A stretch of DNA of 64,000 nt from Patescibacteria group bacterium (lineage in GTDB: Bacteria; Patescibacteriota; Minisyncoccia; UBA6257; 2-01-FULL-56-20): positions 71,040 through 135,039 of the forward strand of contig JBBTUL010000011.1 of assembly GCA_038063755.1 (NCBI GenBank), in the 5' to 3' direction. Made by a program: the position numbers and the translations under genes. The notes beneath the pieces were generated by a model. That model was not told where the DNA came from. It did no database searches and saw nothing but the letters and a program-made list of their open reading frames with translations. Shown piece after piece: positions 12,479 through 50,730 of this stretch. The stretch's first letter is position 1. Every line of letters begins with the position of its first letter.

Positions 12479-12524
12479 CCTACCTGTCGCACAATCATCA
12501 TTTTGCGACAGGTAGGGTCTTTTA
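12479..12524 (+). terminator. rho-independent terminator
   Basis: CCTACCTGTCGCA ... TGCGACAGGTAGG is a 13-bp stem, followed by GTCTTTT. Confidence 0.6.
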
Positions 12525-15747: not shown

Positions 15748-16890
15748 CTAGACGAGCTGCAATATCTGCTTTGCGATTTCCTCTGCGGCTCGAGGCTTTG
15801 CAAATTGAAGGGCCGATCGAGACATATTGTCTCTTACGGTCGGATTTGAAAGTATTTTCTTTAGCTCGTGCACAAAAGTTTGTGCATTTAGATTTTCTTC
15901 CTCTATTACAATCGCTCCGCCTCCTCCGGCAAAAATGTACGCGTTAGATCGTTGATGATCCTTTGCCGATTCATCAAGAGGAACCAGGACGGAAGGTGTT
16001 CCGAATGGTGCAATCTCGAATAGTGTTCCGCTGCCGGAACGGGCGAGCACAACATCAGCCGCTGATAGGGCTTCGGTAAGTTTTTTCTCTTCAAAGTATG
16101 GCACCAGGGAGTAGCGATGTTCGACTTCGGTCTTCACCGGAAGATCAATAAGAACAGCTTCTGAAAGTTTTTTTGTATCCAAAAAATCCCCGGTTCCTGC
16201 TTGGTGTAAAATCTGCGTCTCGGTGAGGAATTCTTTTAGATTAAGAGCTACGAATCGATTTATGCGCTGAGCTCCTTGCGACCCACCGAGAACAAGAAGA
16301 ACCGGCTCTCCGGGGTTAAAGCCGAGGCTTTCTTTCGCCGCTTCCTGGGTAATCCTCTTCTCCTGGAAACTCCTCCGAACGGGATTTCCTAAAATTAAAA
16401 CTTTTCTCGAGTCGAAGTATTGACGGGCTGCTTCAAAGCTTAAGATGATTTTCTTTGCGAATCGTGCCGTAAGTAGCGTCGTAAGGCCTGGGACGGAGTC
16501 GGACTCATGTATGACAATCGGAATTCGATAAAACCAGCCGCACAAAACCACCGGCAGGGCTCCGGGACCGCCCTTTGAAAAAATCACGTCGGGCATTAAG
16601 AGAAACATTTTCCACCAGGCTTGTATGAGGCCGACGAAAAACTTCGGAATATCGATAAAATTTTGCAGGGAAAAATACCGGCGGAGTTTCCCGGTGAGGA
16701 TCGGGTGTATGGCAACAGGAACGCGTGCGAACTCTCTTGAATACTGATCGAGCGAGCCGAACCAGTGCATCGTGATTTTCCCCGGCAACTGCCCGCGCGT
16801 ATCCTGTAGTATCTCTGCAACAGCGACAAGAGGATTTATATGTCCCCCGCTTCCTCCGCCACAGAAAAGAATTCGAATTTCTGATTCCAT
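15748..16890 (-). CDS. murG: undecaprenyldiphospho-muramoylpentapeptide beta-N-acetylglucosaminyltransferase
   Basis: ILFCGGGSGGHINPLVAVAEIL is the MurG N-terminal motif, with a GT-B C-domain. Confidence 0.9.
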   Translation of the reverse strand: MESEIRILFCGGGSGGHINPLVAVAEILQDTRGQLPGKITMHWFGSLDQYSREFARVPVAIHPILTGKLRRYFSLQNFIDIPKFFVGLIQAWWKMFLLMPDVIFSKGGPGALPVVLCGWFYRIPIVIHESDSVPGLTTLLTARFAKKIILSFEAARQYFDSRKVLILGNPVRRSFQEKRITQEAAKESLGFNPGEPVLLVLGGSQGAQRINRFVALNLKEFLTETQILHQAGTGDFLDTKKLSEAVLIDLPVKTEVEHRYSLVPYFEEKKLTEALSAADVVLARSGSGTLFEIAPFGTPSVLVPLDESAKDHQRSNAYIFAGGGGAIVIEEENLNAQTFVHELKKILSNPTVRDNMSRSALQFAKPRAAEEIAKQILQLV

Positions 16891-16896
16891 AATATA

Positions 16897-18009
16897 TTAG
16901 GTGTACTTAGAAATATTAGCGGCGATACCGCTCATGGTCAAAAAAACGGCAAGGGCAGTCCCCCCGTAGCTTACAAATGGCAACGGAACTCCCGTAAGCG
17001 GTAAAAGTCCTGAAATTGATCCGATATGAACAATGGACTGTAGGGCAATAATAAGTCCGAAACCAGCCAAAATGAGCTTCCCGAAGCGATCCCTCGCCCG
17101 TGAAGCTATCCAGAAGAAGCGAAAAACTAAAATCGCGAATATGACAACAACCACGCTTGTTCCGAGAAAGCCAAGTTCTTGTCCCAAAACGGCGAAAATA
17201 GAGTCGTCGATGACTGCGGGAAGACTACTGGCTTTGGCCGTCGACTGTCCATATCCGACTCCCGTGACCCCTCCGGAACCGATTGCAATGAGCGCTTGAT
17301 TCAAGTGGTAGTTTGCTCCAAGAGAGTCACCACTTTGATCGAAAAAACTCATTACTCGCTTCATTCGGTACGGAGTTGCAAAAATAAGCATCGTAAGAGC
17401 CAGTAAGCCGAGTCCCGCGATTGAAAATATGTATTTCCATTTAGCACCGCTTAAAAAATAGACACCCAAACCGGCAGTAAGCAGGATTGCGACCGTACTC
17501 GTCGCCGGCTGCAAAACCAAAAGTCCTCCGATAATTCCCGAAATAATGAGAAAAGGGAACAGGCCTTCGCTCATTGTTTCTGAACGACTCACTTTGGTAT
17601 TCGAAAGCCAAGCTGCAAGATACAAAATAAAGGAAAGTTTTAGTAGCTCTGCCGGCTGAAACGTAATTGGCCCCATCTCAAGCCAACGGCTTGCTCCTCC
17701 AGAAGTAATTCCGAAACTAGTAAATACCAACGAAAGCAAGCCGACGTTAACAAGCAGGAATGGTAGTGCAATCTTTTGATAAAACTGATATCGGATAAAG
17801 TAAGCCGCAAGAAATCCGAGCAGACCAAGCGAAAGACCGAAATACATCTGATGCTTTAAATAATAGTAACTATCTCCGAACTTAATTTCTCCGATATTCG
17901 AAGAAGCGCTCGATAGTACGATAAGTCCTCCGAGCGTAAGAATGAAAACCGAAGCAAGAAGGAGGTAGTCGGGATGATGTCCCCTCTTTGAAAAAAACCG
18001 CTCTTTCAT
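16897..18009 (-). CDS. ftsW: SEDS-family peptidoglycan glycosyltransferase (FtsW/RodA)
   Basis: Ten TM helices and the LPLTGVPLPFVSYGGTA signature. Sits immediately upstream of murG, as in dcw clusters. Confidence 0.8.
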   Translation of the reverse strand: MKERFFSKRGHHPDYLLLASVFILTLGGLIVLSSASSNIGEIKFGDSYYYLKHQMYFGLSLGLLGFLAAYFIRYQFYQKIALPFLLVNVGLLSLVFTSFGITSGGASRWLEMGPITFQPAELLKLSFILYLAAWLSNTKVSRSETMSEGLFPFLIISGIIGGLLVLQPATSTVAILLTAGLGVYFLSGAKWKYIFSIAGLGLLALTMLIFATPYRMKRVMSFFDQSGDSLGANYHLNQALIAIGSGGVTGVGYGQSTAKASSLPAVIDDSIFAVLGQELGFLGTSVVVVIFAILVFRFFWIASRARDRFGKLILAGFGLIIALQSIVHIGSISGLLPLTGVPLPFVSYGGTALAVFLTMSGIAANISKYT

Positions 18010-19511
18010 TGTCGATGCTTTTTTACCGTTTCACCGGCCCGAATCCCGGTTATCTCTCCATTACGAACAACGACTTGTCCGCCGAGAATGACGAACCGAA
18101 CAAGACCATCTTTGAAAACCGCGCAGTCGGCGAAATTTCCTTCCTTGAGCATTCCTCTTTTTTTAAGTCCGAGCTTCTTTGCAGGGGCAAGTGTGATTTT
18201 TTCCACTGCCCTTTCGATGGATAGCGACTTGTCCTCGAGAAAAAGCCTGAGGAATTCAGGGAATGTTTTCGTCGACCGATCTGAGTGTGTAAAGCTCGTA
18301 TCCTTTCCGAAATTAGGAGCATGCGATGAGACAAGCGATCGATCATGCGAAAGCGCCTTCTTCAGTAGGTCTCCGTTGATATTTTTAATATGAATCACGG
18401 CTCGTAAATCAGTACACGCCATAAGGTGCAACAAAGCACCTCCTACGTCGTCTATCTCGTACATTTCTTGAACATCCTTCAATGTCTTGCCAGACAAAGA
18501 TTCATTTCCTGGGGCGTAGGCAATCTGAATATCAAGACTGTTAACCACTGGAAACTCCTTGATGATCCTCGGAATCATCCATGGATCCCGGATGGCTTTT
18601 TTTATCTCTAGAATTCCTTGGTTTCGCATCCAAAACGGAAGGAGACGATGAATCGGAACGGTACTTACCGGAAATGGATAAACATCAAAATGGACGTTTC
18701 GTTCTTTAGGAAGAGCGTCAAGCTTATCGAGAATTCGAAGATATTGCTCCTCGAATCCCTTAACTGGAACAAGGTGCGAAATGAGCATGTTCACTTGAGA
18801 TTCCTTTGAAAGTTTCAACGCCTCGTCAACGGATTTTTCGACATCACAGTCGACGCTACGTAAATGAATCGAGTACAGTAGGTTCTCCGCGCGAACCGTA
18901 CTCGCAAGAGATAACAGTTCCTTGTACGGTGTATTCCGAGCATGAATATACTCAAGTCCCGTAGAAAGCCCAAACGAACCATCCCGAAATGATTGACGAA
19001 GGATTTTTTCGAATAGTTGTGTTTCGTGCGCCGTAAGATCCCGAAGTTCTTCCCCGATAATCCCCCGTCGTATCGTGCTGTGCCCCGTAAGCGTTGCGAA
19101 ATTCACTCCCAGTCTCAACTTCTGAACATGCGAAAGAAATTCTTTTACGGTATGCCAATCGATGTTCATCTTCGACACATCCGCCCATTTTTGTATCGAT
19201 TCGAGCGAGCCATACAAAAGAGGCGCAAGAGATGATCCGCATTGCCCCCCGATCATCGTTGTAACTCCCTGCCGCAAAAAATCCCATTGCTCAGGATTCT
19301 CAAATAGCGAAAGATAGTGATCCGAGGTTGTTCCAATATCGATAAATCCAGGAGAAACGTAGCCCCCCTGACCATCGATGGTCTCCTCAGCTGCCTTTTC
19401 TGGAAATGACCCGATTGCCGAAATTTTGTTTCCAGATATAAAAATGTCTTTTTGGCTTGGCCGAGAGGCATCCCCAGCCAAAACAGTAACGTTTTTAATG
19501 AGAACCGACAT
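18006..19511 (-). CDS. amidohydrolase-superfamily protein (D-aminoacylase-like)
   Basis: MSVLIKNVTVLAGD ... YVSPGFIDIGTTSDHY N-terminal beta-sandwich/TIM pattern of N-acyl-D-amino-acid deacylases. Start set at the internal Met (ATG at 19509-19511); the ORF is open up to 19532. Confidence 0.6.
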   Translation of the reverse strand: MSVLIKNVTVLAGDASRPSQKDIFISGNKISAIGSFPEKAAEETIDGQGGYVSPGFIDIGTTSDHYLSLFENPEQWDFLRQGVTTMIGGQCGSSLAPLLYGSLESIQKWADVSKMNIDWHTVKEFLSHVQKLRLGVNFATLTGHSTIRRGIIGEELRDLTAHETQLFEKILRQSFRDGSFGLSTGLEYIHARNTPYKELLSLASTVRAENLLYSIHLRSVDCDVEKSVDEALKLSKESQVNMLISHLVPVKGFEEQYLRILDKLDALPKERNVHFDVYPFPVSTVPIHRLLPFWMRNQGILEIKKAIRDPWMIPRIIKEFPVVNSLDIQIAYAPGNESLSGKTLKDVQEMYEIDDVGGALLHLMACTDLRAVIHIKNINGDLLKKALSHDRSLVSSHAPNFGKDTSFTHSDRSTKTFPEFLRLFLEDKSLSIERAVEKITLAPAKKLGLKKRGMLKEGNFADCAVFKDGLVRFVILGGQVVVRNGEITGIRAGETVKKHRQ

Positions 19512-19559
19512 TGTTCCTTTATTATATCTCATCCGGAAACATTCCGTTGTGCCAAGATG

Positions 19560-20444
19560 CTACCTTTCCGATGCGATATTGAGTGTTTTTGTGATCGGGG
19601 ATGGTTTTACGTGGATCGTCCCATTTACATCAGTACGAAAAACCGCACTGCCCAAACGTGAGAGAACGGTTAAAATACCTGCCGATGGATGACCGTATCT
19701 ATTCTCTGCTCCAACCCCAATAAGCGCCACTTCTGGACCCACTGCTTGTAAAAAGTCATTACTTGAAGAAAACTTTGATCCGTGATGTCCGACCTTCAAA
19801 ATATTCGCTGAAAGCTTTTCTTCTTTTGAAATCAAATACCGTTCAAGATTTGATCCTGCGTCACCAACAAGAAGCATGGTCCAGTCCTTGGTTTCGACTT
19901 TTTCGACAAGAGAGGTGTCATTCAATTCTCCGCTTTCTATGATCATTGGGTCCGGCGAAAGAATGCGAATTACACTTTCCCCTTGCTTAATACTGTCTCC
20001 TGCGCCAAGGACAATAATTGGAATATTTCGTTTTTTTATTTCGCCAAGAAGTGCGTTCCATCTTATTCTCGCCTCTCCCTCGGGAGTTCTGCCGTTTATA
20101 ATAAACGTTCCAAACTTATACCTTGCGAGAAGGTGTGAAAATCCTCCAAAATGATCAAGTTGCGGATGAGAAATTATCGCGATATCTATATATGAACCCT
20201 CCGGAAGCTCGCTTCGAATCGCTCGGAGTATTGATGAATCTGGTCCACCGTCCGTCATGATTCTTGCGCCGGAATCGAATTGAACAAGAGAAGAATCACC
20301 TTGGCCTACATCAAAAAAATAAACTTCGTTCTTCGATGAGCCGGTTTCTGTAAAAATTCGGTTCCATAAAAAAACGTCAAATACAAAAAATGTCGCCACA
20401 AAAATTATTCCAAGTGTATTATTTTTTTCTGCGTAAAGATCCAT
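19560..20444 (-). CDS. comEC: ComEC/Rec2 C-terminal metallo-beta-lactamase domain (separate ORF)
   Basis: FFDVGQGDSSLV ... IAIISHPQLDHFGG (MBL HxHxDH-type motif) after one TM helix. In ComEC this domain normally follows the competence domain. Confidence 0.7.
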   Translation of the reverse strand: MDLYAEKNNTLGIIFVATFFVFDVFLWNRIFTETGSSKNEVYFFDVGQGDSSLVQFDSGARIMTDGGPDSSILRAIRSELPEGSYIDIAIISHPQLDHFGGFSHLLARYKFGTFIINGRTPEGEARIRWNALLGEIKKRNIPIIVLGAGDSIKQGESVIRILSPDPMIIESGELNDTSLVEKVETKDWTMLLVGDAGSNLERYLISKEEKLSANILKVGHHGSKFSSSNDFLQAVGPEVALIGVGAENRYGHPSAGILTVLSRLGSAVFRTDVNGTIHVKPSPITKTLNIASER

Positions 20445-21837
20445 TGTCTAGATGATTGTTTTTAATGAGAAAAAAGAAAATCATCAAATAATAGATTGCG
20501 TACAGGAAAGCAGAAAATCGAAAACCTAAAAACTGAAACGGAATCTTACTAAAAAAATTTATTATGCCGGTTTCGTAGAGTAGGAGGATCTTCAGAAACA
20601 ACGCGATCGGAAACGAAAGAGATGCAGAAAAAAGGCCGAGAACGGCAACAACGAATCCAAAAAACATCGTTATTGGAACAAACGGAAGAATAAGCGTGTT
20701 TGGAATAAATGAAAGAAATGAAGCGGAACCAAGCGAGGTTGTAAGTATCGGAAGAACAACAATTTGAGCTCCGAGACTCTGAGAAGCAGCCTTCGTAAGC
20801 CATGATCCCTCCTTTTTTTCTTGTCTTAATTTTGATAACAAGACTTCAAGTTTTGGAGCGACGAAGGCGATACCTAAAAGACTTACGAAGGATAGCTGAA
20901 ATCCCAAAGAGAATAAAATACTCGGACTCGTGACTATCATGAAAAGCGCTATAAAAACGATAGAATGGCCGAAGCTGTAAAGGCGGCCGATGTGACGAGC
21001 GAAGAGGGCAAGAAAGCCCATTCCCGCCGCTCGAACGATAGAAGGCTCGCCTCCAACCATCACCACAAAAATAAGAATTGCGAAAAGTGTTGCGATGAAT
21101 GTAATCTTTCGAGAAAAATAAGGAAGAAGCGTCGCGTATATTACCGTAACAAGAATTGCAACATTGTACCCGGAAAGCGCGACCAAGTGCGTTGTTCCGC
21201 TATCCTTCATTTTCTCGCGAAATTCCTTGCTGAAACCGCTTCGATTCCCGAGAGTTATTCCGCTCGCAAATACCCCCAAATCTCCAGGAAGATGCTCGGT
21301 AAGAGCAGAAATTGCTTTCTGTTTTACGGCAATAAGCTCTTTTCTGATAAAATTTTTTCCCGAACCAGATCTTACTTTGAGGATTTTTGGAAATGCCGCA
21401 AGATGATCCCCGAATTTTTTTTCGTGCGCGGTTATGATCCCTTCGACATCGATATGATCTCCATAAAAGAACGACCCGTTGCTTATCACCTTGATCTTCC
21501 CCGCTCTTGGAGTTTCGAGCTCCGCAAGGAACGAAGCGCTTCCACCTTCAATTGTGATGGGTTCACTTACGATCTCCGCAGAGAAACGGACTCTTTCGTT
21601 AAAGATGATGTCTTCTTGAGATCTTTCTCGCTCAAGCGAGAAAGATCCGTACCATGCCCCGCAGAGAAAACCAAGCAAAACGACGAAAGCGAAAAGTGAC
21701 TTTTTGAAAAGGAAAAGAGATGAAGAACAAAGCAGGGCAATCACAATCAACAAAAAACCGGGAGTACTGATCCCGAAAAGGAACATTCCAGACAAAAAAG
21801 AAAGGGAGGTCCAGAAAATTATTTCCGCGCGCGCCAT
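20419..21837 (-). CDS. comEC: ComEC/Rec2 N-terminal membrane (competence) domain
   Basis: Polytopic membrane protein with HLVALSGYNVAILVTVIYATL, the Competence-domain signature. Its 3' end overlaps the MBL ORF by 26 nt in another frame. Confidence 0.7.
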   Translation of the reverse strand: MARAEIIFWTSLSFLSGMFLFGISTPGFLLIVIALLCSSSLFLFKKSLFAFVVLLGFLCGAWYGSFSLERERSQEDIIFNERVRFSAEIVSEPITIEGGSASFLAELETPRAGKIKVISNGSFFYGDHIDVEGIITAHEKKFGDHLAAFPKILKVRSGSGKNFIRKELIAVKQKAISALTEHLPGDLGVFASGITLGNRSGFSKEFREKMKDSGTTHLVALSGYNVAILVTVIYATLLPYFSRKITFIATLFAILIFVVMVGGEPSIVRAAGMGFLALFARHIGRLYSFGHSIVFIALFMIVTSPSILFSLGFQLSFVSLLGIAFVAPKLEVLLSKLRQEKKEGSWLTKAASQSLGAQIVVLPILTTSLGSASFLSFIPNTLILPFVPITMFFGFVVAVLGLFSASLSFPIALFLKILLLYETGIINFFSKIPFQFLGFRFSAFLYAIYYLMIFFFLIKNNHLDNGSLRRKK

Positions 21838-22484: not shown

Positions 22485-22492
22485 GGGTTTAT

Positions 22493-24427
22493 CTACTCTT
22501 CGTCGTGCGTTATCTCAGCTTTATGAAGTGATTCTGCTATTGCCTTTCTCAGGTCTGCAATGTTAACTCCGTCCTTTTTTCTTTCCGCTCTTTGTTTCTC
22601 TGGCACTGACCTTTCCGAAAGATCCTTGAGCGAAAGAGTTTTTTCGGTACTGCTTTGCTGCGATGCCCTTGCTTCTACTTCAATTCTTGGGACAAAAGAT
22701 CTTTTTCTCTGTTGAAACTGAAGCTCCGATCGCTCTGGGCGCTTCGGAAAGTCTTTATTCTGAATTTCCTGCGGAGCTTTTCGAGACACTGCCTCCTCGG
22801 GCTGCTCCGTCCTTTCCTCTGTCGGATGAAGAATCTTTGTTTTTTCTTCACCGCCTCCCTCGAACTCGATCCCGAGACTCGCAAGATCAGCAGAAAACTG
22901 TTTCTGATTAACGCTGACCTTCGGGGAGGAAGATCTCGATGCAGGCATAATTGTCCCCTCTTTTATCCCGGCGAGACATTCTCGGCAGTATACGGGCTTC
23001 CCGGGTATGGGCTCAAAAGGAACGGTTGTTTCTCTCCCGCAAGATGAGCAAATTGCCGAGAAAGACTCTCCGCTTCTCGGAGTGCTCGCTCGCGACATAA
23101 TTGTTTCTCCCTCTCCTCCCCTCGGAACCATTCCGGCCCATCGATTAATTTCGTCCTCAATGACTTCCCGGGGGCGAGCGTATCTTTCCCTTGACTGCTC
23201 AATAATTTCCTGCGCAGTCGATGCGTCCTCTACTCCTTTTATGGGCGGTAATGTTTTCGCGGAAAACGGCCTTGAGGCAACCCCGTCGCATAAAAGTTTC
23301 AAATAAATATGATAGTTCGGAAGGTTTACGATGTCTTGGATAGTAAACTCCGGCTCAAACTCGCTTTCGAGAAACTCCGCATCGGCAGCCCCGACACGAA
23401 AGATGATCATCGTTCCTGCGTTTCCAAAAATTGCGTCTCTTACTTTTGTAGAAACATCCGTAACAAGTTGTCCTATATATTGATGCGCCAGTATCAGATC
23501 AAGTCGATATTTTCTTGCTTCAGATAAAACACTCGCAAATGAATCCGTTGCGAAGTTTTGAAATTCATCGACGTAGAGATAGAAGTCGACGCGCTCGTCC
23601 TCCGGAATACGGACGCGCTCCATCGAGGCAAGTTGAATTTTCGTAATAAGCATCGCTCCCAAAAGCGCGGAGTTATCCTCCCCAATGCGCCCCTTGGAGA
23701 CATTTACCAAAAAAATCTTTCCTTCGTTCATAATGTTAAATATGTCCATCGTGCTTTTCGATTGTCCGACGACGTTTCTCACGATTGCGGTTGAAAGAAA
23801 TTGACCAACCTTGTTTTGAATAGGCGCTATGGCTTCGTTTCTGAACTTGTCTTGCCACGCCTCATACTCGTGAATCCAAAAAGCCTTTACCACTGGATCT
23901 TTAATGTTATTCACAATGGTCTGCCGAAATTCTTTATCGACCAAAATGCGAGTGATACCAAGGAGCGTTGAGCCGGGTGTGTCGAGAAGCGCAAGGATTG
24001 CGTTGTTTAAAATGTATTCCATTCTCGCCGACCAGACATTTGACCAAATTTTCGTAAAAATTCCCATAAGACCTGAAGCAACCAAATGCTTGTATTTCGG
24101 GTCTGGCAGTTCAAGCACATTAAAGCCAATGTGATAATCGATGTCAGCTGGATTGAAATATACGACATCCTTTACGCGCTCCTTCGGGATTTTCGAAAGA
24201 ACTCCCTCAATAAGCTCTCCGTGCGGGTCAACGACACACACGCCTTCGCCGTTTGCGATATCTTGAATAATAAGATTGCTTAAAAAAGCGGACTTTCCGG
24301 TACCGGTCTTTCCGATAACATACATGTGCTGCCTTCGATCGTTTCTTTTGATGCCAAAAATCCGATCGGCGTTACGAAAATCGGTTTTCGCAAAATATAC
24401 GACATCTCTGTCCGGTCTATCAATCAT
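22493..24427 (-). CDS. soluble VirD4/TraD/TraG-like (T4CP-like) P-loop ATPase with C-terminal zinc ribbon and a long charged tail (T4CP-like-1)
   Basis: Walker A HMYVIGKTGTGKS, Walker B FYLYVDEFQNF, and the AHQYIGQL coupling-protein motif. No N-terminal TM. C-terminal ribbon CSSCGRETTVPFEPIPGKPVYCREC, followed by a ~170-aa E/K/R/S-rich low-complexity tail. Confidence 0.75.
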   Translation of the reverse strand: MIDRPDRDVVYFAKTDFRNADRIFGIKRNDRRQHMYVIGKTGTGKSAFLSNLIIQDIANGEGVCVVDPHGELIEGVLSKIPKERVKDVVYFNPADIDYHIGFNVLELPDPKYKHLVASGLMGIFTKIWSNVWSARMEYILNNAILALLDTPGSTLLGITRILVDKEFRQTIVNNIKDPVVKAFWIHEYEAWQDKFRNEAIAPIQNKVGQFLSTAIVRNVVGQSKSTMDIFNIMNEGKIFLVNVSKGRIGEDNSALLGAMLITKIQLASMERVRIPEDERVDFYLYVDEFQNFATDSFASVLSEARKYRLDLILAHQYIGQLVTDVSTKVRDAIFGNAGTMIIFRVGAADAEFLESEFEPEFTIQDIVNLPNYHIYLKLLCDGVASRPFSAKTLPPIKGVEDASTAQEIIEQSRERYARPREVIEDEINRWAGMVPRGGEGETIMSRASTPRSGESFSAICSSCGRETTVPFEPIPGKPVYCRECLAGIKEGTIMPASRSSSPKVSVNQKQFSADLASLGIEFEGGGEEKTKILHPTEERTEQPEEAVSRKAPQEIQNKDFPKRPERSELQFQQRKRSFVPRIEVEARASQQSSTEKTLSLKDLSERSVPEKQRAERKKDGVNIADLRKAIAESLHKAEITHDEE

Positions 24428-24487
24428 GTCTCTTTATTATACGTTATATTTGCCCCTTCATATAGCATTTTTCACGCTTCTAGCAAC

Positions 24488-26263
24488 CTATCGAGTTTCA
24501 GCCAAAAAACACGACTCACAGTAAACAATTGCCTCTTTCTCATTCGAAAATGTGGTCTCGAATGAGTTCTCACACCTCTTGGATCCGTGAGAATGAATTG
24601 TGTTATTTTTATACTTTCCCGACTCTCCTCCTTCGCACATACAAAATCCCTTCTGCCATCGGGGAGGGTTCCTCTTTGCTGTTCGCGCAGAATGCCGACA
24701 AGGAAAACAGCTTCTTGGAAGGGCAAGATTGAAGCGCTTGTAAAAACCAAGTTCTGCGGATGCAATTTGATAGGCTCGCTTGCAGGAAGCGCATCCGATA
24801 ACCTCTTTAAGAATTTCGTCGGATGTGTCGCTGATGTGGTCTGATAGCTCCTCAGCTCGAACCGTTATTTCAAAGTCGCGCAGATTCGGATCCTGCCACC
24901 CGAAACCCGTTTTTAACGCTTCTTCTTTCGCAAGTGGAAGAAGATCAAGCGCCATTGTTTCGTTGTATGCGTATGGGGAAAACTCCGGAGGAAAAAACTC
25001 GCCGTACCCGTAACTCTTCCCCCTGGCATCAACGTACGGCATCTCCTTCATGTGTTTTTTGAGTAGTGAAACCTTCTTCTGATACTCCTCTTTCGAATAC
25101 TGTTTATTAAAAATGCAATACTGCGCGCTTCTAAGGCCAATGCACGCGAAACAGTTCGAGGAAGAGTGACACTCGATACAATATTCAAGCTCGGTACAAC
25201 CAGGCCAGCATTCGATGCAAAATTTCAAGCGGTTTGATTCGTTGCCACAGGTAACGCATTCATATATAAGCTCGGTTGAATCACCCCAATTGGTGAAGTC
25301 GTATGATTCGCTTGTTCCCGCAAGAATGCTTTGGGAATACTTTACGTTCTCTACCCCTATTGCCTCATAGCAGTATTTTGCGTTTTTGGAATTATACACG
25401 TACTCACCAATTACATTTTCATTCTGGGACCCGTGAAAAAACTTCTCGGGAAACTGCTTGTCCATACTCATCATGCGTTCTTTCATCTTCCGAACTACTT
25501 CGTACGAACCGAGGTCAAACTTTTTGATTTCTCGCTCATATTCTTCCTTTGTATATGGCTTGTTGAAAATATAATATTTCTTATGCAGAAGATTCACGCA
25601 ACCAAAGCAGTCCGAACAATCGTCGCATCGTACGAGAAAGGCAGAGTTTTGACACCCTTCACAGTCGTAGGAGAAAAACGTTTTGTAACAACTTGCGACG
25701 AGAGAAACCTCGCTGCAAAGCTCCAGTTTTCCCGATTGGAAAAAATCCACTGAATCCTTCACATCCATAAAGGTAACGCCATAAAGCGAGTTTTCTCCAC
25801 GACCTCCATTGAAGCAAAGATAGCAATTTTTTAGGTCCCCGGACTGATCGCAATAATCGCTGTTTGAGAGTCTGAGGATAGACCGTGAAGCCCGAGGAAC
25901 TTTTTTGATAAACTCCCGGAATTGCGCAAAAAACGGTCTTGAAAGATCGCACTCTTCCCCAAAAGACAGGGGGTCCCATGAGTCAGACCACCACCGAGGA
26001 TGGTCGTAGACTTGAATCGGAGCTGACCTTGGAAAACTCGAAAATATTTCTTCTTTTGTAACGGCATCGACATTCCGAAATAATTGGTGGTCATTTCTGA
26101 AACACATCCTCCTCTGCATTCTGCACTCCGGACACCGCGTCGGTGGTGGAACATCCATCTTCTTGTAGAAATCGAAGTCTTCGGACTCAATAACAAAGTC
26201 CTTGCTGCAGTTTTGACAGACTTGTCCTGAGCTTGCCGAAGGGTTTTTGGTTTCGTGATTCAT
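24488..26263 (-). CDS. cysteine-rich zinc-ribbon-flanked family protein, paralog B
   Basis: CQNCSKDFVIESEDFDFYKKMDVPPPTRCPECR N-ribbon. The second N-ribbon Cys are lost (RNVDAVTKEEIFSSFPRS). Central YCIECHSSSNCFACIGLRSAQYCIFNKQYSKEEY. C-terminus AIVYCESCF. Confidence 0.8.
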   Translation of the reverse strand: MNHETKNPSASSGQVCQNCSKDFVIESEDFDFYKKMDVPPPTRCPECRMQRRMCFRNDHQLFRNVDAVTKEEIFSSFPRSAPIQVYDHPRWWSDSWDPLSFGEECDLSRPFFAQFREFIKKVPRASRSILRLSNSDYCDQSGDLKNCYLCFNGGRGENSLYGVTFMDVKDSVDFFQSGKLELCSEVSLVASCYKTFFSYDCEGCQNSAFLVRCDDCSDCFGCVNLLHKKYYIFNKPYTKEEYEREIKKFDLGSYEVVRKMKERMMSMDKQFPEKFFHGSQNENVIGEYVYNSKNAKYCYEAIGVENVKYSQSILAGTSESYDFTNWGDSTELIYECVTCGNESNRLKFCIECWPGCTELEYCIECHSSSNCFACIGLRSAQYCIFNKQYSKEEYQKKVSLLKKHMKEMPYVDARGKSYGYGEFFPPEFSPYAYNETMALDLLPLAKEEALKTGFGWQDPNLRDFEITVRAEELSDHISDTSDEILKEVIGCASCKRAYQIASAELGFYKRFNLALPRSCFPCRHSARTAKRNPPRWQKGFCMCEGGESGKYKNNTIHSHGSKRCENSFETTFSNEKEAIVYCESCFLAETR

Positions 26264-26290
26264 GAAGGACTATTTACTTTGGTCCAATCG

Positions 26291-28099
26291 TTACGCCGTC
26301 TCTGCCTGAAAACATCCTTCACAATAAACGATATCGGGAAGCGCCTTGTCATATGGAGACTCGAATGTATTCGTACAGCTTGATGACGATTCGTGGGCTT
26401 GATGCAGGGCGATGTTTTTATAGCCACCATCTAACGACACGTCCCCTCTACACTGACATTCTCGAGTATAGAGCTTTGCCGGAAGACGCTGTTTAATACG
26501 TTCGAAGTGGCGTGAATTGTAACAACGACGAGGGATTGGCAATCCGAACCTTTTATAGAATTCGAGTTCTTGTGGGATGATGCGAAAAACTCCCGTGCAG
26601 TTGTGCAGGATGGCCTCTTCGGAATCTTCATCCCAAGATCGGCATCGGATTGTTTGTCCGAGAAGGTCATCCGTGGCGTCCTCTATGGAATCCGGAACAT
26701 CTTGCCATCGCAGTGTCGCTTCGTGCTTTTTTCCCTCAGGTTTCTTCCATATCAGATGCTGTTCGGCAGCGGCATGTTCGGATAGTGGAAAGTTTTCTTG
26801 CGCGAGCGTGTGGTTATAGGGATAGGGAGAAAATTCCGCCGGGAAAAACTCGCCGTATGGGTACCGTAGCCCATTTGCGTCAACATACGGCATTGTATTC
26901 ATGTGCTCAATAACGCGTTCCCGGAGCGCGAAATACTCTTCCTTCGAATATTGCTTGTTCAAAATACAATACTCTCTCTTCTTAACTCCGGCACATCCGA
27001 AAAGATTTGAGGAATTACTACAATAGAGTGCGTATTCAAGATTCTTGTTTTCGGGCCAGCATTCCCAACAGAAGCGACAGTTATATATCCCCAAGCCACT
27101 TGCGACCGCTTCATAGACCAATTCGGCGTTATCTCCCCAGACGGTATAGTCGTAGCACTGCCTCGTGGGAGGCGTTAGTATGTACTGACAGTAACGACTG
27201 TCTTCAAGGCCAAGCGCAAGATAGCAATTTTCGGCATTTTTTGATTGATAGACATACGATCCCGAAGCATTTACGTTTTTGTTGTTTGCCGCATATTTAT
27301 TCGGAAACTTCAGCCAGAACTCGGCGCTTTTCTTCTTGAACTCTTCGATCTTTCCATAGGAGTTGAGAGCGAATTCCTTTACTCGTCTCTCGTATTCCTC
27401 CTTGGTGTAGGGTTCGTTGAAGATATGATATTTCTTGTTCTTTAAATTCACGCAACCGAAGCAGTCATGGCAACCAATACATTGTTTTGAGAACCACATA
27501 TCGTACGATCCGTTACAGCGCGTTGAAAAAAAGCACTTCGAACAGTCGGCGGAAAACGAAAGCTCGTAGCAGAATTCGCTACTATCCATATGTGAAAAAT
27601 CTATGCAGTTCTTTCCGTTATTAACCCCATTTCCGTACATGCAATCTTCGGCATAATTTCCGTTGAAAACGAGGTAGCAATTTTTAAACCCGGTATAATT
27701 GTTGGAATAGTCACTGTTTGTTCCATACACAACCGAAAGCGAGTAAATCGGCACCGCTTTCCAGAGGTCATAAAGCTGTGCAAGAAACGGCTTTGAAAAA
27801 TCGACCTCGCGCCCGAAAGACATCGGATCGATGGTGTCCCCGAAAAACAATTCATTCTCGACGATTTTTTGGCGGGAATCCGGAGGGAACATTGAAAATA
27901 TTTCCTTGCCCGAAACTTCGCTTTTTCGCTTATATAGGAAGCGCTCGTTTCTAAATGCCATCCTCCGCATCATCCTGCAGGCCGGACACCGCGTCGGTGG
28001 TGGAACATCCATCTTCTTGTAGAAATCGAAATCGACCGGCTCAAGAGCGAAATCCTGGTGACAACTCTCGCAGATGCGGTGTTCTATTGCGTCTGTCAC
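26291..28099 (-). CDS. cysteine-rich zinc-ribbon-flanked family protein, paralog C
   Basis: CESCHQDFALEPVDFDFYKKMDVPPPTRCPACR. Central CIGCHDCFGCVNLKNKKYHIFNEPYTKEEYE and FGCAGVKKREYCILNKQYSKEEY. C-terminus GVFRIIPQELEFYKRFGLPIPRRC ... PDIVYCEGCF. Sits in tandem with B. Confidence 0.8.
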   Translation of the reverse strand: MTDAIEHRICESCHQDFALEPVDFDFYKKMDVPPPTRCPACRMMRRMAFRNERFLYKRKSEVSGKEIFSMFPPDSRQKIVENELFFGDTIDPMSFGREVDFSKPFLAQLYDLWKAVPIYSLSVVYGTNSDYSNNYTGFKNCYLVFNGNYAEDCMYGNGVNNGKNCIDFSHMDSSEFCYELSFSADCSKCFFSTRCNGSYDMWFSKQCIGCHDCFGCVNLKNKKYHIFNEPYTKEEYERRVKEFALNSYGKIEEFKKKSAEFWLKFPNKYAANNKNVNASGSYVYQSKNAENCYLALGLEDSRYCQYILTPPTRQCYDYTVWGDNAELVYEAVASGLGIYNCRFCWECWPENKNLEYALYCSNSSNLFGCAGVKKREYCILNKQYSKEEYFALRERVIEHMNTMPYVDANGLRYPYGEFFPAEFSPYPYNHTLAQENFPLSEHAAAEQHLIWKKPEGKKHEATLRWQDVPDSIEDATDDLLGQTIRCRSWDEDSEEAILHNCTGVFRIIPQELEFYKRFGLPIPRRCYNSRHFERIKQRLPAKLYTRECQCRGDVSLDGGYKNIALHQAHESSSSCTNTFESPYDKALPDIVYCEGCFQAETA

Positions 28100-28102
28100 G
28101 CC

Positions 28103-28294
28103 CTATCTTGAAAGTTGTTTTTTGAAGAACGCAGATTGCACCTCTGGAGTTTTCCCACCAAGAATCCAAAATGAAAATTCACTCTTTACGCCTCTGAGCT
28201 CCTTAGCTGACGCAAATACCGGCAGAATAAGCGATAAAATAATAAGAATGACGGCAATGGTGACAATGGTTTTTAACGAGTTTCTCATGTCCAT
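28103..28294 (-). CDS. hypothetical small single-TM protein (63 aa)
   Basis: One TM helix (IVTIAVILIILSLILPVFA), wedged between murD and paralog C with 3-24 nt gaps. Confidence 0.4.
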   Translation of the reverse strand: MDMRNSLKTIVTIAVILIILSLILPVFASAKELRGVKSEFSFWILGGKTPEVQSAFFKKQLSR

Positions 28295-28318
28295 ATTTTA
28301 CTTCAAAAAGCGAAATTG

Positions 28319-29713
28319 TCACGTCGAAAAAAGCGAGCCGAGAACCTCTCGCTTGAACTGATCTCCTCTATCTTTATAGCTTTTAAACATTCCGAAGCTC
28401 GCGCAGGCGGGAGAGAGCATCACAATGTCACCTGCGACAGCCTCCTTCCTTGCCACGTCAACAATCTCTGCCATCGACTTACATCCTTCTATAAATTTAA
28501 CTTCCCTCTTCTTTGTACGATCAATCGCCTCTTTTATTCTTTCCCACTCTTCGCCGATTCCGATAACTGCCTTTACCGATGCGTCGTTTTGGATAAGCTC
28601 GCCAAGCTCGCCGAAATCAGACCCCTTGTGCGACCCTCCCAAAATCATTATTTTTGGATAATTAAAAGCCTTAATCGCTGCAATCGCGCTTTCTGGTGTT
28701 GTCGAGAACGAGTCGTTTACGTATCGAACTCCGTCGATCTCGGCTATTAGCTCGAGCCGATGCGGCAATCCGCGGAAGCTCCTCAGGGTCGCAGCTATTA
28801 CTCTGGTTGAAACTCCGGCGCATTTTGCAGCCATCGTTGCGGCACAAACATTTTCTAGATTGTGCGACCCTGGCAGGAAAATTTCATTCGTGTCGACAAT
28901 CTTTTCTTCTTCGGCGTCGTTTCGCACAAAAACAGAATTGTCACGCACAAAACATCCCTCTCGAACCTCATCATTCCTGCTTACCCAATACTTTTTTCCG
29001 AAAGACTGATTTGCGATAAAAATGGAATTTTTAAAGTCCTGATTTGCGATAATAACATCGTTTGTCGATTGAAATTTTGCGATCGCTCCCTTCGCCTCTA
29101 CGTACTCCTCTTCGGTCACATGGTAGTCGAGGTGCTCGCTTGTTACCATAAGGACCACCGCAATGTTCGGACTTTTTGTTAAATCAATAAGCTGAAAGCT
29201 TGAAAGCTCACAGACCGAAACCGACTGCGCAGTAAGTTTTGGCAAAAGCGAAAGCATCGAAACTCCGATGTTCCCTCCGAGATAAACGTCCTTCCCTTCG
29301 CTTCGCAGCATTTCGGCGATGAGCGATGCGGTCGTTCCCTTCCCTTTTGTTCCGGTTACCCCAATCGTAAGCCCCTCCGCGTATTCAAAAAAGATTTTGG
29401 TTGAAGAAGTTATTTCGATTCCTTTCTCTCTCGTCGCCTTCAAGTAAGCTGCGCCGGAATGAACGCCGGGCGAACGGAATATAAAATCAAATCCGTCGAA
29501 ATTTTCAAACTTTCCGAAAACAACCGGAATGTCGAGAGATCTGCATTTTTTAATTGTCTCAGCATCGAGCAGCGCCTCTTCTTTCTCGTCAAAAACCGTT
29601 GGAATTGCTCCCTCTTCGAGAAGGAAAGAGGCGGCCTCGAGTCCGGCATCAACGCCCAAGCCCAAAACCGCAACCTTTTTCCCACTAAATTTTTCCTTTG
29701 GATCTCCTTTCAT
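28319..29713 (-). CDS. murD: UDP-N-acetylmuramoylalanine--D-glutamate ligase
   Basis: KKVAVLGLGVDAG N-terminus and the GTKGKGTTASLIAEML P-loop. Confidence 0.9.
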   Translation of the reverse strand: MKGDPKEKFSGKKVAVLGLGVDAGLEAASFLLEEGAIPTVFDEKEEALLDAETIKKCRSLDIPVVFGKFENFDGFDFIFRSPGVHSGAAYLKATREKGIEITSSTKIFFEYAEGLTIGVTGTKGKGTTASLIAEMLRSEGKDVYLGGNIGVSMLSLLPKLTAQSVSVCELSSFQLIDLTKSPNIAVVLMVTSEHLDYHVTEEEYVEAKGAIAKFQSTNDVIIANQDFKNSIFIANQSFGKKYWVSRNDEVREGCFVRDNSVFVRNDAEEEKIVDTNEIFLPGSHNLENVCAATMAAKCAGVSTRVIAATLRSFRGLPHRLELIAEIDGVRYVNDSFSTTPESAIAAIKAFNYPKIMILGGSHKGSDFGELGELIQNDASVKAVIGIGEEWERIKEAIDRTKKREVKFIEGCKSMAEIVDVARKEAVAGDIVMLSPACASFGMFKSYKDRGDQFKREVLGSLFST

Positions 29714-50727: not shown

Positions 50728-50730
50728 GGA

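What the first reader, a model, noticed from the sequence alone, without database searches (positions are those of the whole stretch)
15748..29713. Cell-wall (dcw-type) cluster broken up by insertion of the Cys-rich/T4CP-like module and other cargo
murD (28319-29713) and ftsW-murG (15748-18009) are in the canonical order and orientation. About 10 kb separates them, holding a 63-aa TM protein, paralogs C and B, T4CP-like-1, trmD, the split comEC and an amidohydrolase. murC lies a further 6 kb downstream, itself immediately preceded by paralog A. The whole run from murD to the M23 peptidase is co-directional with tiny intergenic gaps. The family therefore appears to have inserted repeatedly into, and be co-transcribed with, essential division/peptidoglycan genes.
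Basis: partly seen in the sequence, partly recalled or inferred. Interest (0 to 1): 0.5.

Follow-up and report, generated by a model that had tools for sequence, protein, structure and literature searches.

The report
Conserved Paceibacteria cell-wall gene neighbourhood, not insertion

Summary
murD, a 63-aa TM gene, two Cys-rich paralogs, a T4CP-like ATPase, trmD, a two-ORF comEC, an amidohydrolase, ftsW and murG lie co-directionally on the minus strand. Gaps run from -26 to +60 nt. murC follows 6.4 kb further on, directly after a third paralog.

A relative with 59% MurD / 79% FtsW identity has the same order gene for gene. Its parC and parB orthologs (71% and 67%) are as conserved as housekeeping genes. 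Across 11 comparator genomes, amidohydrolase-ftsW is adjacent in 11/11 and murG follows in 10/11. T4CP1-trmD lies upstream in 6/11 and the split comEC in 6/11. murD is never adjacent to ftsW. One Liptonbacteria genome has the whole T4CP1-to-ftsW block without any paralog.

Other genomes show sigma-DUF8128-T4CP2-[up to 7 tandem paralogs]-T4CP1-trmD-comEC-amidohydrolase-ftsW. So murD sits inside a fragmented paralog array rather than the array being inserted next to murD.

I found no integrase, flanking repeats, tRNA, GC deviation, or phage/plasmid homologs. The Cys-rich family is large (over 5,000 50%-identity clusters) and uncharacterised. Co-transcription is plausible but untested.

The parts
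28319..29713 (-). murD (UDP-MurNAc-L-Ala--D-Glu ligase), first gene of the predicted unit
   Evidence: Pfam MurD-like_N, Mur_ligase_M and Mur_ligase_C. NCBIfam TIGR01087 equivalog, 368 bits against a cutoff of 212. A terminator-like hairpin with a T-run at 29771-29753 lies just upstream, after o110.
28103..28294 (-). 63-aa protein with one TM segment
   Evidence: Hydrophobic segment at residues 3-21. No family hit. A related 145-aa ORF occupies the same position in L009 and L011.
26291..28099 (-). Cys-rich paralog C (602 aa)
   Evidence: 44% identical to parB. Ortholog in L012 at 71%. N-terminal zf_Tbcl hit is below the gathering score, 20.9 against 24.
24488..26263 (-). Cys-rich paralog B (591 aa)
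22493..24427 (-). T4CP-like ATPase 1: soluble, with a C-terminal CxxC-x17-CxxC zinc ribbon and a charged tail
   Evidence: Pfam TrwB_AAD_bind 54 bits, TraG-D_C 31.8 bits, zf_Tbcl_2 53.9 bits. TIGR04272 58 bits against a cutoff of 36. No TM segment. Orthologs at 64-77% identity in L012, L013, L014, L017, L018, L027 and L028.
21819..22484 (-). trmD (tRNA m1G37 methyltransferase)
   Evidence: Pfam tRNA_m1G_MT, 148 bits. The 19-nt overlap with comEC_N is also seen in L012, L013, L014 and L028.
20419..21837 (-). comEC part 1: membrane Competence domain ORF
   Evidence: Pfam Competence, 152 bits. 11 hydrophobic segments.
19560..20444 (-). comEC part 2: metallo-beta-lactamase ORF, in a different frame with a 26-nt overlap
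   Evidence: Pfam Lactamase_B. The same two-ORF split occurs in L012, L013, L014, L018, L028 and L031.
18006..19532 (-). D-aminoacylase-family amidohydrolase, overlapping ftsW by 4 nt
   Evidence: PDB sequence hits 9g5m (1e-40), D-aminoacylase 1m7j (8e-35), N-acyl-D-glutamate deacylase 3gip (3e-27) and carbohydrate de-N-acetylase 9kb3. Directly upstream of ftsW in 11 of 11 comparators.
16897..18009 (-). ftsW (SEDS peptidoglycan polymerase)
   Evidence: Pfam FTSW_RODA_SPOVE, 293 bits.
15748..16890 (-). murG
   Evidence: Pfam Glyco_transf_28 and Glyco_tran_28_C.
14250..15701 (-). gltX (glutamyl-tRNA synthetase), conserved neighbour of murG
   Evidence: Pfam tRNA-synt_1c, 327 bits. Follows murG in at least 9 comparators.
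12979..14241 (-). M23 peptidase; the start is probably ATG 14241, not GTG 14391
   Evidence: Pfam Peptidase_M23. Start-codon analysis places the signal/TM sequence right after Met51.
12522..12947 (-). 141-aa membrane protein, last gene of the predicted unit
   Evidence: Ortholog in L012. A strong hairpin follows at 12517-12478, -31.2 kcal/mol with z -6.3.
11720..12085 (-). msrB
   Evidence: Pfam SelR, 163 bits.
11147..11710 (-). HD-domain protein, overlapping parA by 4 nt; absent at this position in L012
   Evidence: Pfam HD. In L012, msrB runs directly into murC.
9378..11150 (-). Cys-rich paralog A (590 aa), overlapping murC by 4 nt
   Evidence: The closest relative, at 52%, is the L028 paralog that lies directly upstream of T4CP1.
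8014..9381 (-). murC
   Evidence: Pfam Mur_ligase, Mur_ligase_M and Mur_ligase_C.
7236..8006 (-). PD-(D/E)XK exonuclease-like protein, conserved after murC
   Evidence: phrog_298 exonuclease, 3.7e-30. 79% identical in L012; also present in L018, L023, L030 and L031.
57561..63811 (-). Other end of the paralog array: sigma-r4/HARE-HTH protein, DUF8128 membrane protein (o454), 2-TM o167, T4CP-like ATPase 2 and paralog F
   Evidence: The same five-gene order lies directly upstream of the paralog array and T4CP1 in L027 and L028.
48861..52452 (-). Paralogs D and E in tandem

Best explanation
This is the normal, vertically inherited chromosome layout of a Paceibacteria (Parcubacteria, Liptonbacteria-related) groundwater bacterium. 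It is not a dcw operon recently disrupted by a mobile module.

The layout is layered by age:
1. The oldest, near-universal core is amidohydrolase-ftsW-murG-gltX-M23(-murC-exonuclease). The D-aminoacylase-like amidohydrolase is translationally coupled to ftsW and is probably itself a cell-wall gene.
2. In a subclade, T4CP1-trmD and a two-ORF comEC are fixed upstream of that core, with conserved overlapping stop/start codons.
3. Upstream of T4CP1 lies an ancient tandem array of Cys-rich ~590-aa proteins, which in other genomes is bounded by a second module (sigma-like, DUF8128, 2-TM protein, T4CP2). In the window's lineage this array has been fragmented by rearrangements. Housekeeping genes, including murD, now lie between parF/parE/parD and parC/parB, and parA lies in front of murC.
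4. murD upstream of the array is the youngest layer, seen only in the closest relatives.

How it likely works (inferred, not shown). murD through o141 is 14 genes over 17.2 kb, bounded by hairpins at 29771-29753 and 12517-12478, and is read as one or a few polycistronic transcripts with translational coupling. The two soluble T4CP-like (FtsK/HerA-type) ATPases probably act as hexameric translocation motors. T4CP2 would be docked to the membrane by DUF8128/o167. The cytoplasmic zinc-finger/beta-solenoid paralogs would be their clients or adaptors. The fixed T4CP1-trmD-comEC linkage suggests a role in moving DNA or protein across the envelope, alongside ComEC-mediated uptake.
For: Same order in relatives:
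- L009/L012 (MurD 59%, FtsW 79%) has the same order from tgt to VTT, including both paralogs, the split comEC and the amidohydrolase.
- L011+L013 (MurD 66%, FtsW 82%) agrees over the parts assembled.
- The T4CP1-trmD-comEC-MBL-amidohydrolase-ftsW-murG-gltX(-M23) block is also in L014-16, L018 and L028 at 58-65% FtsW identity.

Core without the module: L019, L022, L023, L030 and L031.

Array layout: L027 and L028 show sigma-DUF8128-o167-T4CP2-[3 to 7 paralogs]-T4CP1.

Conservation: T4CP2 is 83-84% identical across these genomes, more than FtsW. The paralog tree shows parB and parC orthologs in other genomes, and the closest in-genome pair is only 46% identical.

No sign of mobility:
- No tRNA.
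- No integrase or transposase among the Pfam hits.
- GC of 0.42-0.48 inside the region against 0.44-0.51 for the whole window.
- No flanking repeats.
- No family member in phage, plasmid or IMG/VR collections.

Published context: 5,713 VirD4-type T4CP homologues in 2,918 Patescibacteria genomes, only 148 of them near virB4 (PMC12102498).

DUF8128 and a T4CP-like ATPase are both covered by the single profile phrog_5156.
Against: - Comparators are MAG contigs sampled through homolog look-ups (11 genomes), not a systematic phylogeny-aware survey. The polarity of the events (gain versus loss of T4CP1-trmD, comEC and the paralogs) rests on parsimony without a species tree.
- murD > ftsW-murG > murC keeps the canonical relative order, and L014 has ftsI-murF just upstream of T4CP1. 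An ancient insertion into an ancestral dcw cluster therefore remains possible.
- HD-parA before murC is absent in L012, which is compatible with one lineage-specific insertion.
- Transcription units are predicted only. The U-tract after the 12517-12478 hairpin is weak.
- The proposed roles of the T4CP-like ATPases and the paralogs have no direct evidence.
Confidence: 0.75

Rival explanations
1. The Cys-rich/T4CP-like genes are a proliferating, insertion-prone module. It has repeatedly and fairly recently inserted into an originally contiguous murD-ftsW-murG-murC operon, carrying trmD, comEC and the amidohydrolase along as cargo.
For: - The canonical relative order of the four dcw genes is kept.
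- There are six paralogs in 64 kb.
- HD-parA sits before murC in the window but not in L012.
- Paralog number upstream of T4CP1 varies: 0 in L014, 2 in the window, 7 in L027.
Against: - The whole arrangement is shared at 59% MurD identity, with paralog orthologs 67-71% identical.
- The 'cargo' genes are conserved with ftsW where the family is absent: L014, L030, L031.
- murD is never adjacent to ftsW in 11 comparators.
- All six paralogs are deep branches.
- There are no mobility genes, flanking repeats, tRNA or GC shift.
- The family has no homologs in phages, plasmids or viral contigs.
Confidence: 0.07
2. A functionally selected super-operon. The T4CP-like ATPases, the Cys-rich proteins and ComEC are kept next to ftsW/murG/mur ligases because they act together. 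For example, a DNA- or protein-translocation machine might be assembled at the septum or at the host-contact site and need co-expression with septal peptidoglycan synthesis.
For: - Long-term conservation of T4CP1-trmD-comEC-amidohydrolase-ftsW, with conserved overlapping codons.
- Very high conservation of T4CP2.
- T4CP-like genes lie within 2-4 kb of murD in 3 of 4 Microgenomatia loci too.
- Tiny gaps, and hairpins only at the ends of the run.
Against: - The linkage is breakable. L017 lacks comEC, L031 lacks T4CP1-trmD, and L030 has neither yet keeps the core.
- trmD and gltX are unrelated housekeeping genes in the same run, which shows that adjacency here need not mean shared function.
- Compact, strand-biased CPR genomes give small gaps everywhere.
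- There is no expression or interaction data.
Confidence: 0.25
3. An assembly artefact. The MAG contig is chimeric or mis-joined at the repeated paralogs, so murD and ftsW are not really linked in this way.
For: - Other assemblies of the same population break (L002, L003) or join differently (L001: a single parC/parB chimera) exactly at a 49-nt stretch that is identical in parC and parB.
Against: - L001-L003 are 99.9-100% identical to the window on both sides.
- The independent, divergent genome L009/L012 has the same murD-x-parC-parB-T4CP1...ftsW order on one 85-kb contig.
Confidence: 0.02

Closest known systems
Canonical division and cell wall (dcw) cluster (mraZ...ftsI-murE-murF-mraY-murD-ftsW-murG-murC-murB-ddl-ftsQAZ)
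   Same: It contains bona fide murD, ftsW, murG and murC in the canonical relative order and on one strand. ftsW-murG adjacency is kept. The literature describes the cluster as ancestral and subject to erosion by escape of genes (PMC8871954). A non-CPR control locus, L008, shows murD-ftsW-murC contiguous.
   Different: Only 4 of about 16 genes are present in the 64 kb. murD is 10.3 kb from ftsW and murC is 6.4 kb from murG. mraY is not upstream of murD. The lineage-specific fixed neighbours (amidohydrolase, gltX, M23, trmD, comEC, T4CP-like) are conserved across the clade instead.
Orphan VirD4-type T4CP homologues of Patescibacteria (Microb Genom 2025, PMC12102498)
   Same: T4CP1 and T4CP2 are VirD4/TrwB/TraG-type P-loop ATPases encoded far from any virB4, as reported for about 97% of the 5,713 homologues in that survey. 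The authors suggest these may be exapted for other functions.
   Different: That paper, in the passages I searched, does not describe:
- the lack of a TM anchor;
- the CxxC-x17-CxxC zinc ribbon of T4CP1;
- the DUF8128/2-TM partner genes of T4CP2;
- the array of Cys-rich proteins between the two genes;
- the fixed linkage to trmD-comEC-ftsW.
All of these are seen here.
ComEC DNA-uptake channel (single polypeptide with OB/DUF4131, Competence and MBL domains)
   Same: The Competence membrane domain and the metallo-beta-lactamase nuclease domain are both present and adjacent.
   Different: They are encoded as two overlapping ORFs. This split is conserved in all 6 relatives that carry the gene, so it is a stable two-subunit version and not a frameshift pseudogene.
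Treble-clef zinc-ribbon domains zf_Tbcl (PF13451), zf_Tbcl_2 (PF23477) and TIGR04272 (CxxC-x17-CxxC)
   Same: T4CP1 carries a clear zf_Tbcl_2/TIGR04272 domain. The Cys-rich paralogs have CxxC...CPxCR motifs at both ends that resemble zf_Tbcl.

Membership tests
Canonical dcw cluster | A contiguous, co-directional block holding most of the ~16 division and cell-wall genes | tested here: not met
   Only murD, ftsW, murG and murC occur in the 64 kb. They are separated by 10.3 and 6.4 kb of other genes. No mraY, murE, murF, ftsI, ftsA or ftsZ was found.
Canonical dcw cluster | Relative order murD > ftsW > murG > murC on one strand | tested here: met
   With three units on a strand-biased chromosome, the chance expectation for this order is about 1 in 6, so this is weak evidence.
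Canonical dcw cluster | murD directly upstream of ftsW in related genomes (an ancestral junction) | tested here: not met
   0 of 11 Paceibacteria comparators and 0 of 4 Microgenomatia loci. The junction appears only in the non-CPR locus L008.
Mobile element or genomic-island insertion | Integrase, transposase or relaxase; a tRNA or repeat-flanked target; deviant composition | tested here: not met
   No such Pfam hits between 7 and 30 kb. No tRNA. No flanking direct or inverted repeats. GC is within the window's range.
Mobile element or genomic-island insertion | Patchy presence among close relatives, or presence on phages or plasmids | tested here: not met
   The block is present with orthologous content in L012, L013, L014, L018 and L028. 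There are no family hits in phage, plasmid or IMG/VR collections. The exception is HD-parA, which is absent in L012.
Type IV coupling protein (VirD4/TraG/TrwB) | TrwB/TraG-type P-loop ATPase domain | tested here: met
   T4CP1: TrwB_AAD_bind 54.1 bits (cutoff 20.5) and TraG-D_C 31.8 bits (cutoff 22). T4CP2: 37.2 and 22.9 bits. The PDB hit to TrwB covers only the Walker A stretch, E 2e-5.
Type IV coupling protein (VirD4/TraG/TrwB) | N-terminal transmembrane anchor | tested here: not met
   No hydrophobic segment in T4CP1 or T4CP2. DUF8128 (1 TM) and o167 (2 TM) are separate genes upstream of T4CP2. DUF8128 and the ATPase both match the single profile phrog_5156.
Type IV coupling protein (VirD4/TraG/TrwB) | Genomic association with VirB4/T4SS genes or a relaxase | tested here: not met
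   None in the 64-kb window or in the flanks of the related loci. NCBIfam TraD and VirD4 models score far below their cutoffs.
ComEC | Competence membrane domain plus MBL nuclease domain | tested here: met
   Competence 152 bits and Lactamase_B 42.8 bits. They are on two ORFs, a split conserved in 6 of 6 relatives.
zf_Tbcl (PF13451) proteins | Score at or above the Pfam gathering threshold | tested here: inconclusive
   parC 20.9, parB 20.8 and parD 16.9 bits against a cutoff of 24. A few homologs carry the precomputed PF13451 hit.
D-aminoacylase / N-acyl-D-amino-acid deacylase family (the amidohydrolase) | Sequence similarity to characterised members; catalytic activity | tested here: inconclusive
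   PDB sequence hits from 1e-40 to 3e-27 over residues 10-292. NCBIfam gives only weak generic hits. The substrate is not testable here.

The most novel reading that the evidence does not exclude
Paceibacteria carry a conserved, undescribed chromosomal system with these parts:
- Two soluble T4CP-like translocase ATPases. One is paired with a DUF8128 membrane protein, a 2-TM protein and a sigma-r4/HARE-HTH regulator. The other carries a CxxC zinc ribbon.
- Between them, a tandem array of one to seven cytoplasmic ~590-aa proteins with a double treble-clef and a beta-solenoid.

The system is genetically welded to trmD-comEC and to the amidohydrolase-ftsW-murG septal peptidoglycan core. It would be a lineage-specific envelope-translocation machine, either for DNA uptake with ComEC or for delivery of the Cys-rich proteins. 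It would be co-expressed with cell-wall synthesis and would explain the 'orphan' T4CPs of Patescibacteria.
Probability: 0.25. Interest if true: 0.7.

Novelty: new variant of a known kind. Interest (0 to 1): 0.38.

Why it matters
For the finding as posed, the result is corrective. Apparent 'insertions' in a dcw cluster of an ultra-small bacterium turn out to be the clade's stable gene order. They should not be read as evidence of a mobile family targeting essential genes.

Three by-products are more interesting:
- It gives a genomic anchor for the unexplained orphan T4CP homologues of Patescibacteria: conserved partners, a conserved position and a zinc ribbon.
- It flags a very large, wholly uncharacterised Cys-rich protein family. 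More than 5,000 clusters at 50% identity match it, up to seven copies occur in tandem, and orthologs are as conserved as housekeeping genes.
- It identifies a D-aminoacylase-like enzyme as an invariant, translationally coupled partner of FtsW in this clade. That points to a lineage-specific step in peptidoglycan metabolism or salvage.

Tried and rejected
- Rfam (gathering thresholds) and ARAGORN over the whole window found nothing. No riboswitch, tRNA or other RNA explains the layout.
- The sigma-70 promoter scan was at background: 24 found against 21.7 expected. I did not use it to define units.
- The genome-contig scan with MurD returned only 5 loci, 4 of them from a different CPR class (Microgenomatia). 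These were too distant to settle synteny. The useful comparators came from exact-protein look-ups of MurD, FtsW and paralog homologs.
- PADLOC gave no hit for the Cys-rich proteins and only weak HerA/mad8-type hits for the ATPases, so I dropped a defence-system reading.
- Phage, plasmid and IMG/VR searches for the family were all negative.
- Literature searches for DUF8128, and for a Cys-rich zinc-ribbon family in CPR, found nothing.
- I considered and rejected the split comEC being a frameshift pseudogene, because the split is conserved.
- I considered and rejected a chimeric contig, because independent assemblies agree.

Full report
**1. Observation**

The minus strand between 29,713 and 7,236 carries the following genes, in order (ORF list; Pfam; NCBIfam; hydrophobicity):
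- murD, 28319-29713 (TIGR01087 equivalog, 368 bits against a cutoff of 212)
- a 63-aa protein with one TM segment
- Cys-rich paralogs C (26291-28099) and B (24488-26263)
- a T4CP-like ATPase, 22493-24427
- trmD
- comEC as two overlapping ORFs: Competence domain 20419-21837 and MBL domain 19560-20444
- an amidohydrolase, 18006-19532
- ftsW, murG, gltX, an M23 peptidase, a 141-aa membrane protein
- msrB, an HD protein, paralog A (9378-11150), murC (8014-9381)
- a PD-(D/E)XK exonuclease-like gene

murD and ftsW are 10,309 bp apart. murG and murC are 6,366 bp apart. Gaps from murD to o141 run from -26 to +60 nt once the M23 start is placed at ATG 14241.

Two caveats apply.
- 54 of the 58 genes in the window are on the minus strand, and the median co-directional gap is 18 nt (8 inside the region, 20 outside). 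Co-direction and tight spacing are genome-wide properties here.
- No other dcw gene is in the window. The genes upstream of murD are a 110-aa ORF and an AddA-like helicase-nuclease, not mraY.

**2. Source**

The exact MurD protein occurs in Hainich groundwater assemblies (ENA ERZ1292625, well H41, 0.1 µm fraction) and in NCBI GCA_964357965.1, where it is labelled 'Patescibacteria group bacterium'. The closest FtsW and paralog relatives are labelled Liptonbacteria, Jorgensenbacteria, Parcubacteria or Paceibacterota.

**3. Comparison with relatives**

This is the decisive test.

Closest relatives:
- An 85-kb contig (L009/L012; MurD 59%, FtsW 79%) has the same order from tgt through addA, murD, a small ORF, parC (71%), parB (67%), T4CP1 (72%), trmD, the split comEC, amidohydrolase, ftsW, murG, gltX, M23, o141, msrB, murC, the exonuclease, DUF378, VIT1 and VTT.
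- It differs only by an extra FemAB gene and by lacking HD-parA: msrB runs directly into murC.
- A second relative (L011+L013; MurD 66%, FtsW 82%) agrees over what is assembled.

More distant relatives, at 58-65% FtsW identity:
- L014-16 (Liptonbacteria) has ftsI-murF-127aa-T4CP1-trmD-comEC-MBL-(NUDIX)-amidohydrolase-ftsW-murG-(HTH gene)-gltX-M23, with no Cys-rich paralog.
- L018 has two paralogs-T4CP1-trmD-comEC-MBL-amidohydrolase-ftsW-murG-gltX-M23...murC-exonuclease.
- L028 has sigma-DUF8128-166aa-T4CP2...three paralogs-T4CP1-trmD-comEC-MBL-amidohydrolase-ftsW-murG-gltX.
- L017 has sigma...DUF8128-o167-T4CP2-T4CP1-trmD-amidohydrolase-ftsW.
- L030 has rpsP-KH-efp-amidohydrolase-ftsW-murG-gltX-M23-x-murC-exonuclease.
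- L031 has comEC-MBL-amidohydrolase-ftsW-murG-gltX-M23-exonuclease, followed by rplI-S41-def-fmt, as at the left end of the window.

At about 50% FtsW identity (L019, L022, L023), only amidohydrolase-ftsW-murG-gltX-M23 remains. L022 has other wall enzymes upstream.

Tally over 11 comparator genomes:

| Feature | Count |
|---|---|
| Amidohydrolase directly upstream of ftsW | 11/11 |
| murG directly after ftsW | 10/11 |
| Split comEC present | 6/11 (split in all 6) |
| T4CP1-trmD present upstream | 6/11 |
| Paralog(s) directly upstream of T4CP1 | 4/6 |
| murD adjacent to ftsW | 0/11 |

In four Microgenomatia loci found with MurD (45-51% identity), murD is not next to ftsW either. Only a non-CPR control (Bacteriovoracaceae, L008) shows murD-ftsW-murC.

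**4. What this means for the 'insertion' reading**

- The genes called cargo are the conserved part. murD's position is the variable part.
- L027 shows sigma-DUF8128-165aa-T4CP2, seven tandem paralogs, a CTP-transferase-like gene and then T4CP1.
- The window has the same two ends: sigma-o454(DUF8128)-o167-T4CP2-parF at 63811-57561, and parC-parB-T4CP1 at 28099-22493.
- Between those ends lie about 29 kb of housekeeping genes, including murD, with parE and parD in the middle.
- The simplest reading is that an old paralog array bounded by two T4CP-like genes has been fragmented in this lineage, and murD ended up inside it.
- A neighbour-joining tree of 20 full-length paralogs shows parB and parC each grouping with orthologs from L012 and then from L028/L027. 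All six window copies are deep branches, and the closest in-genome pair is 46% identical. The duplications therefore long predate this genome.
- parA's nearest relative (52%) is the L028 copy that sits directly upstream of T4CP1. This suggests parA was relocated from the array, with or without the HD gene. It is the one event that could be called a lineage-specific insertion next to murC.

**5. Mobility tests**

- No tRNA.
- No integrase or transposase domains in the region.
- GC of 0.42-0.48 inside the region, against 0.44-0.51 overall.
- The only repeats are the paralogs' own homology.
- No family member in 50,697 phage records, 72,556 plasmids or IMG/VR.

**6. Transcription (predicted only)**

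- A hairpin plus T-run lies between o110 and murD, at 29771-29753.
- A very stable hairpin follows o141 at 12517-12478 (-31.2 kcal/mol, z -6.3, none of 200 shuffles as stable), though its U-tract is weak.
- No intergenic terminator-like site lies between them.
- Overlaps are conserved across genomes: trmD/comEC_N 19 nt in the window and four relatives; comEC_N/MBL 11-26 nt in five of six relatives (a 20-nt gap in L028); amidohydrolase/ftsW 1-14 nt in most relatives.
- This fits a 14-gene, 17.2-kb polycistronic unit with translational coupling. Promoter predictions are at background, and nothing here measures RNA.

**7. The components**

T4CP1 and T4CP2:
- They are 43% identical to each other.
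- They pass Pfam thresholds for TrwB_AAD_bind and TraG-D_C.
- They have no TM segment.
- They are far below NCBIfam TraD/VirD4 cutoffs.
- They are not near any VirB4 or relaxase gene.
- T4CP1 has a CxxC-x17-CxxC zinc ribbon (zf_Tbcl_2 53.9 bits; TIGR04272 58 bits), which is conserved in L014, L017 and L018.
- T4CP2 is 83-84% identical in L027 and L028, more conserved than FtsW.
- phrog_5156 matches T4CP1 and T4CP2 over its C-terminal half and DUF8128 (o454) over its N-terminal half. This implies that DUF8128 and the ATPase are one protein in some genomes, and that DUF8128 is the missing membrane part.
- A published survey found 5,713 VirD4-type T4CP homologues in 2,918 Patescibacteria genomes, only 148 of them near virB4, and raised exaptation as a possibility (PMC12102498).

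The Cys-rich family:
- Length is about 590 aa, with 32-43 Cys, no signal peptide and no TM segment.
- CxxC...FDFYKK...CPxCR motifs occur at both ends, and a YGEFFP motif is invariant.
- The word-index homolog search saturated: 7,984 of 8,000 scored candidates passed E 1e-5, and all named hits are 'hypothetical' proteins from Parcubacteria lineages.
- 5,127 clusters at 50% identity match at E 1e-3 or better, and 2,242 at 1e-30 or better.
- The AlphaFold model of parB is confident (pLDDT 81.5, pTM 0.82).

The amidohydrolase resembles D-aminoacylases, N-acyl-D-glutamate deacylase and a carbohydrate de-N-acetylase (1e-40 to 3e-27). Given its invariant coupling to ftsW, it is most likely a cell-wall enzyme of this clade, not foreign cargo.

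**8. Verdict**

The region is a lineage-typical, vertically inherited neighbourhood. Remnants of the dcw cluster are interleaved with conserved, clade-specific partners. If an insertion into an ancestral dcw cluster ever happened, it predates the divergence of genomes that now share only 58-65% FtsW identity.

The function of the T4CP-like/Cys-rich genes remains inferred. My best guess is envelope translocation motors plus zinc-finger clients or adaptors, possibly cooperating with ComEC. The architecture gives concrete, testable partners for the orphan T4CPs of Patescibacteria.

Noticed in passing
window 28030-27982 and 26176-26128; L001 11684-11755: parC and parB share a 49-nt exactly identical stretch encoding FDFYKKMDVPPPTRCP, although the proteins are only 44% identical. 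All other paralog pairs share 25 nt or less, and the L012 pair shares 13 nt. Another assembly of the same population (L001) joins parC's first ~47 codons to the rest of parB, giving one 585-aa gene. Two further assemblies end their contigs at or near the stretch (27,982 and 28,001). This is either micro gene conversion plus a real deletion allele, or an assembly collapse.
   Followed up: partly
window 19560-21837: comEC is encoded as two ORFs (Competence domain and MBL domain). They overlap by 26 nt in the window and by 11-26 nt in five of the six relatives that carry it, with a 20-nt gap in L028. It is a stable split gene, not a pseudogene.
   Followed up: yes
window 18006-19532: A D-aminoacylase / N-acyl-D-Glu deacylase-like amidohydrolase overlaps the ftsW start by 4 nt. 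It is directly upstream of ftsW in all 11 comparator genomes. It is a candidate clade-specific peptidoglycan or salvage enzyme.
   Followed up: partly
window 57561-63811; L027 3840-21779; L028 1-13834: The conserved module sigma-r4/HARE-HTH protein, DUF8128 (1 TM), 2-TM protein and T4CP2 precedes tandem arrays of the Cys-rich family: 7 copies in L027 and 3 in L028. The arrays end at T4CP1. T4CP2 is 83-84% identical across these genomes.
   Followed up: partly
window 59353-62686 and 22493-24427: The PHROG profile phrog_5156 (824 positions, unknown function) matches DUF8128 over positions 78-305 and both T4CP-like ATPases over about 390-815. DUF8128 and the ATPase therefore occur as one fused protein elsewhere, including in viral genomes.
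   Followed up: no
window 9378-11710 vs L012 17053-18829: The HD protein and parA, which overlap each other and murC by 4 nt, lie between msrB and murC in the window. They are absent from L012, where msrB overlaps murC. This is the only candidate for a lineage-specific gain or loss of a family member next to a mur gene.
   Followed up: partly
window 7236-8006: A PD-(D/E)XK exonuclease-like protein (phrog_298, 3.7e-30) always follows murC or M23 in relatives. It is 79% identical in L012, which is unusually conserved for an unnamed gene.
   Followed up: no
window 12478-12517: A very stable hairpin (14-bp stem, -31.2 kcal/mol, z -6.3) lies immediately after the o141 stop, at the start of the only large gap (436 nt) in the run. 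It is the likely end of the murD...o141 transcription unit. The U-tract is weak.
   Followed up: partly
window 12979-14391: The mechanical ORF for the M23 peptidase starts at GTG 14391 and would overlap gltX by 142 nt. The likely true start is ATG 14241 (MKNYILNISCSLALFL..., a signal/TM sequence), 8 nt after the gltX stop.
   Followed up: yes
L004 4691-12888; L006 2280-9847; L007 9210-17002: In Microgenomatia (Levybacteria-like) genomes, a longer T4CP-like gene without the CxxC ribbon lies 2-4 kb from murD. The orders are T4CP-like, XerC/D-like recombinase, murI, murD, tgt; or murI, murD, a class-I tRNA synthetase, ftsH, T4CP-like. Linkage of T4CP-like genes to murD may therefore be older than Paceibacteria. 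Orthology was not established.
   Followed up: partly
L005, L006, L007 (record titles): Three GTDB representative MAGs titled 'uncultured Gammaproteobacteria bacterium' carry CPR-type MurD (46-51% to the window). Two of them also carry the T4CP-like neighbour. The titles are probably mislabelled.
   Followed up: no
window 1-64000: There is extreme gene-strand bias: 54 of 58 genes are on the minus strand, and cumulative GC skew falls steadily from about 6 kb to the end of the window. The window is probably one replichore arm without an origin or terminus.
   Followed up: no
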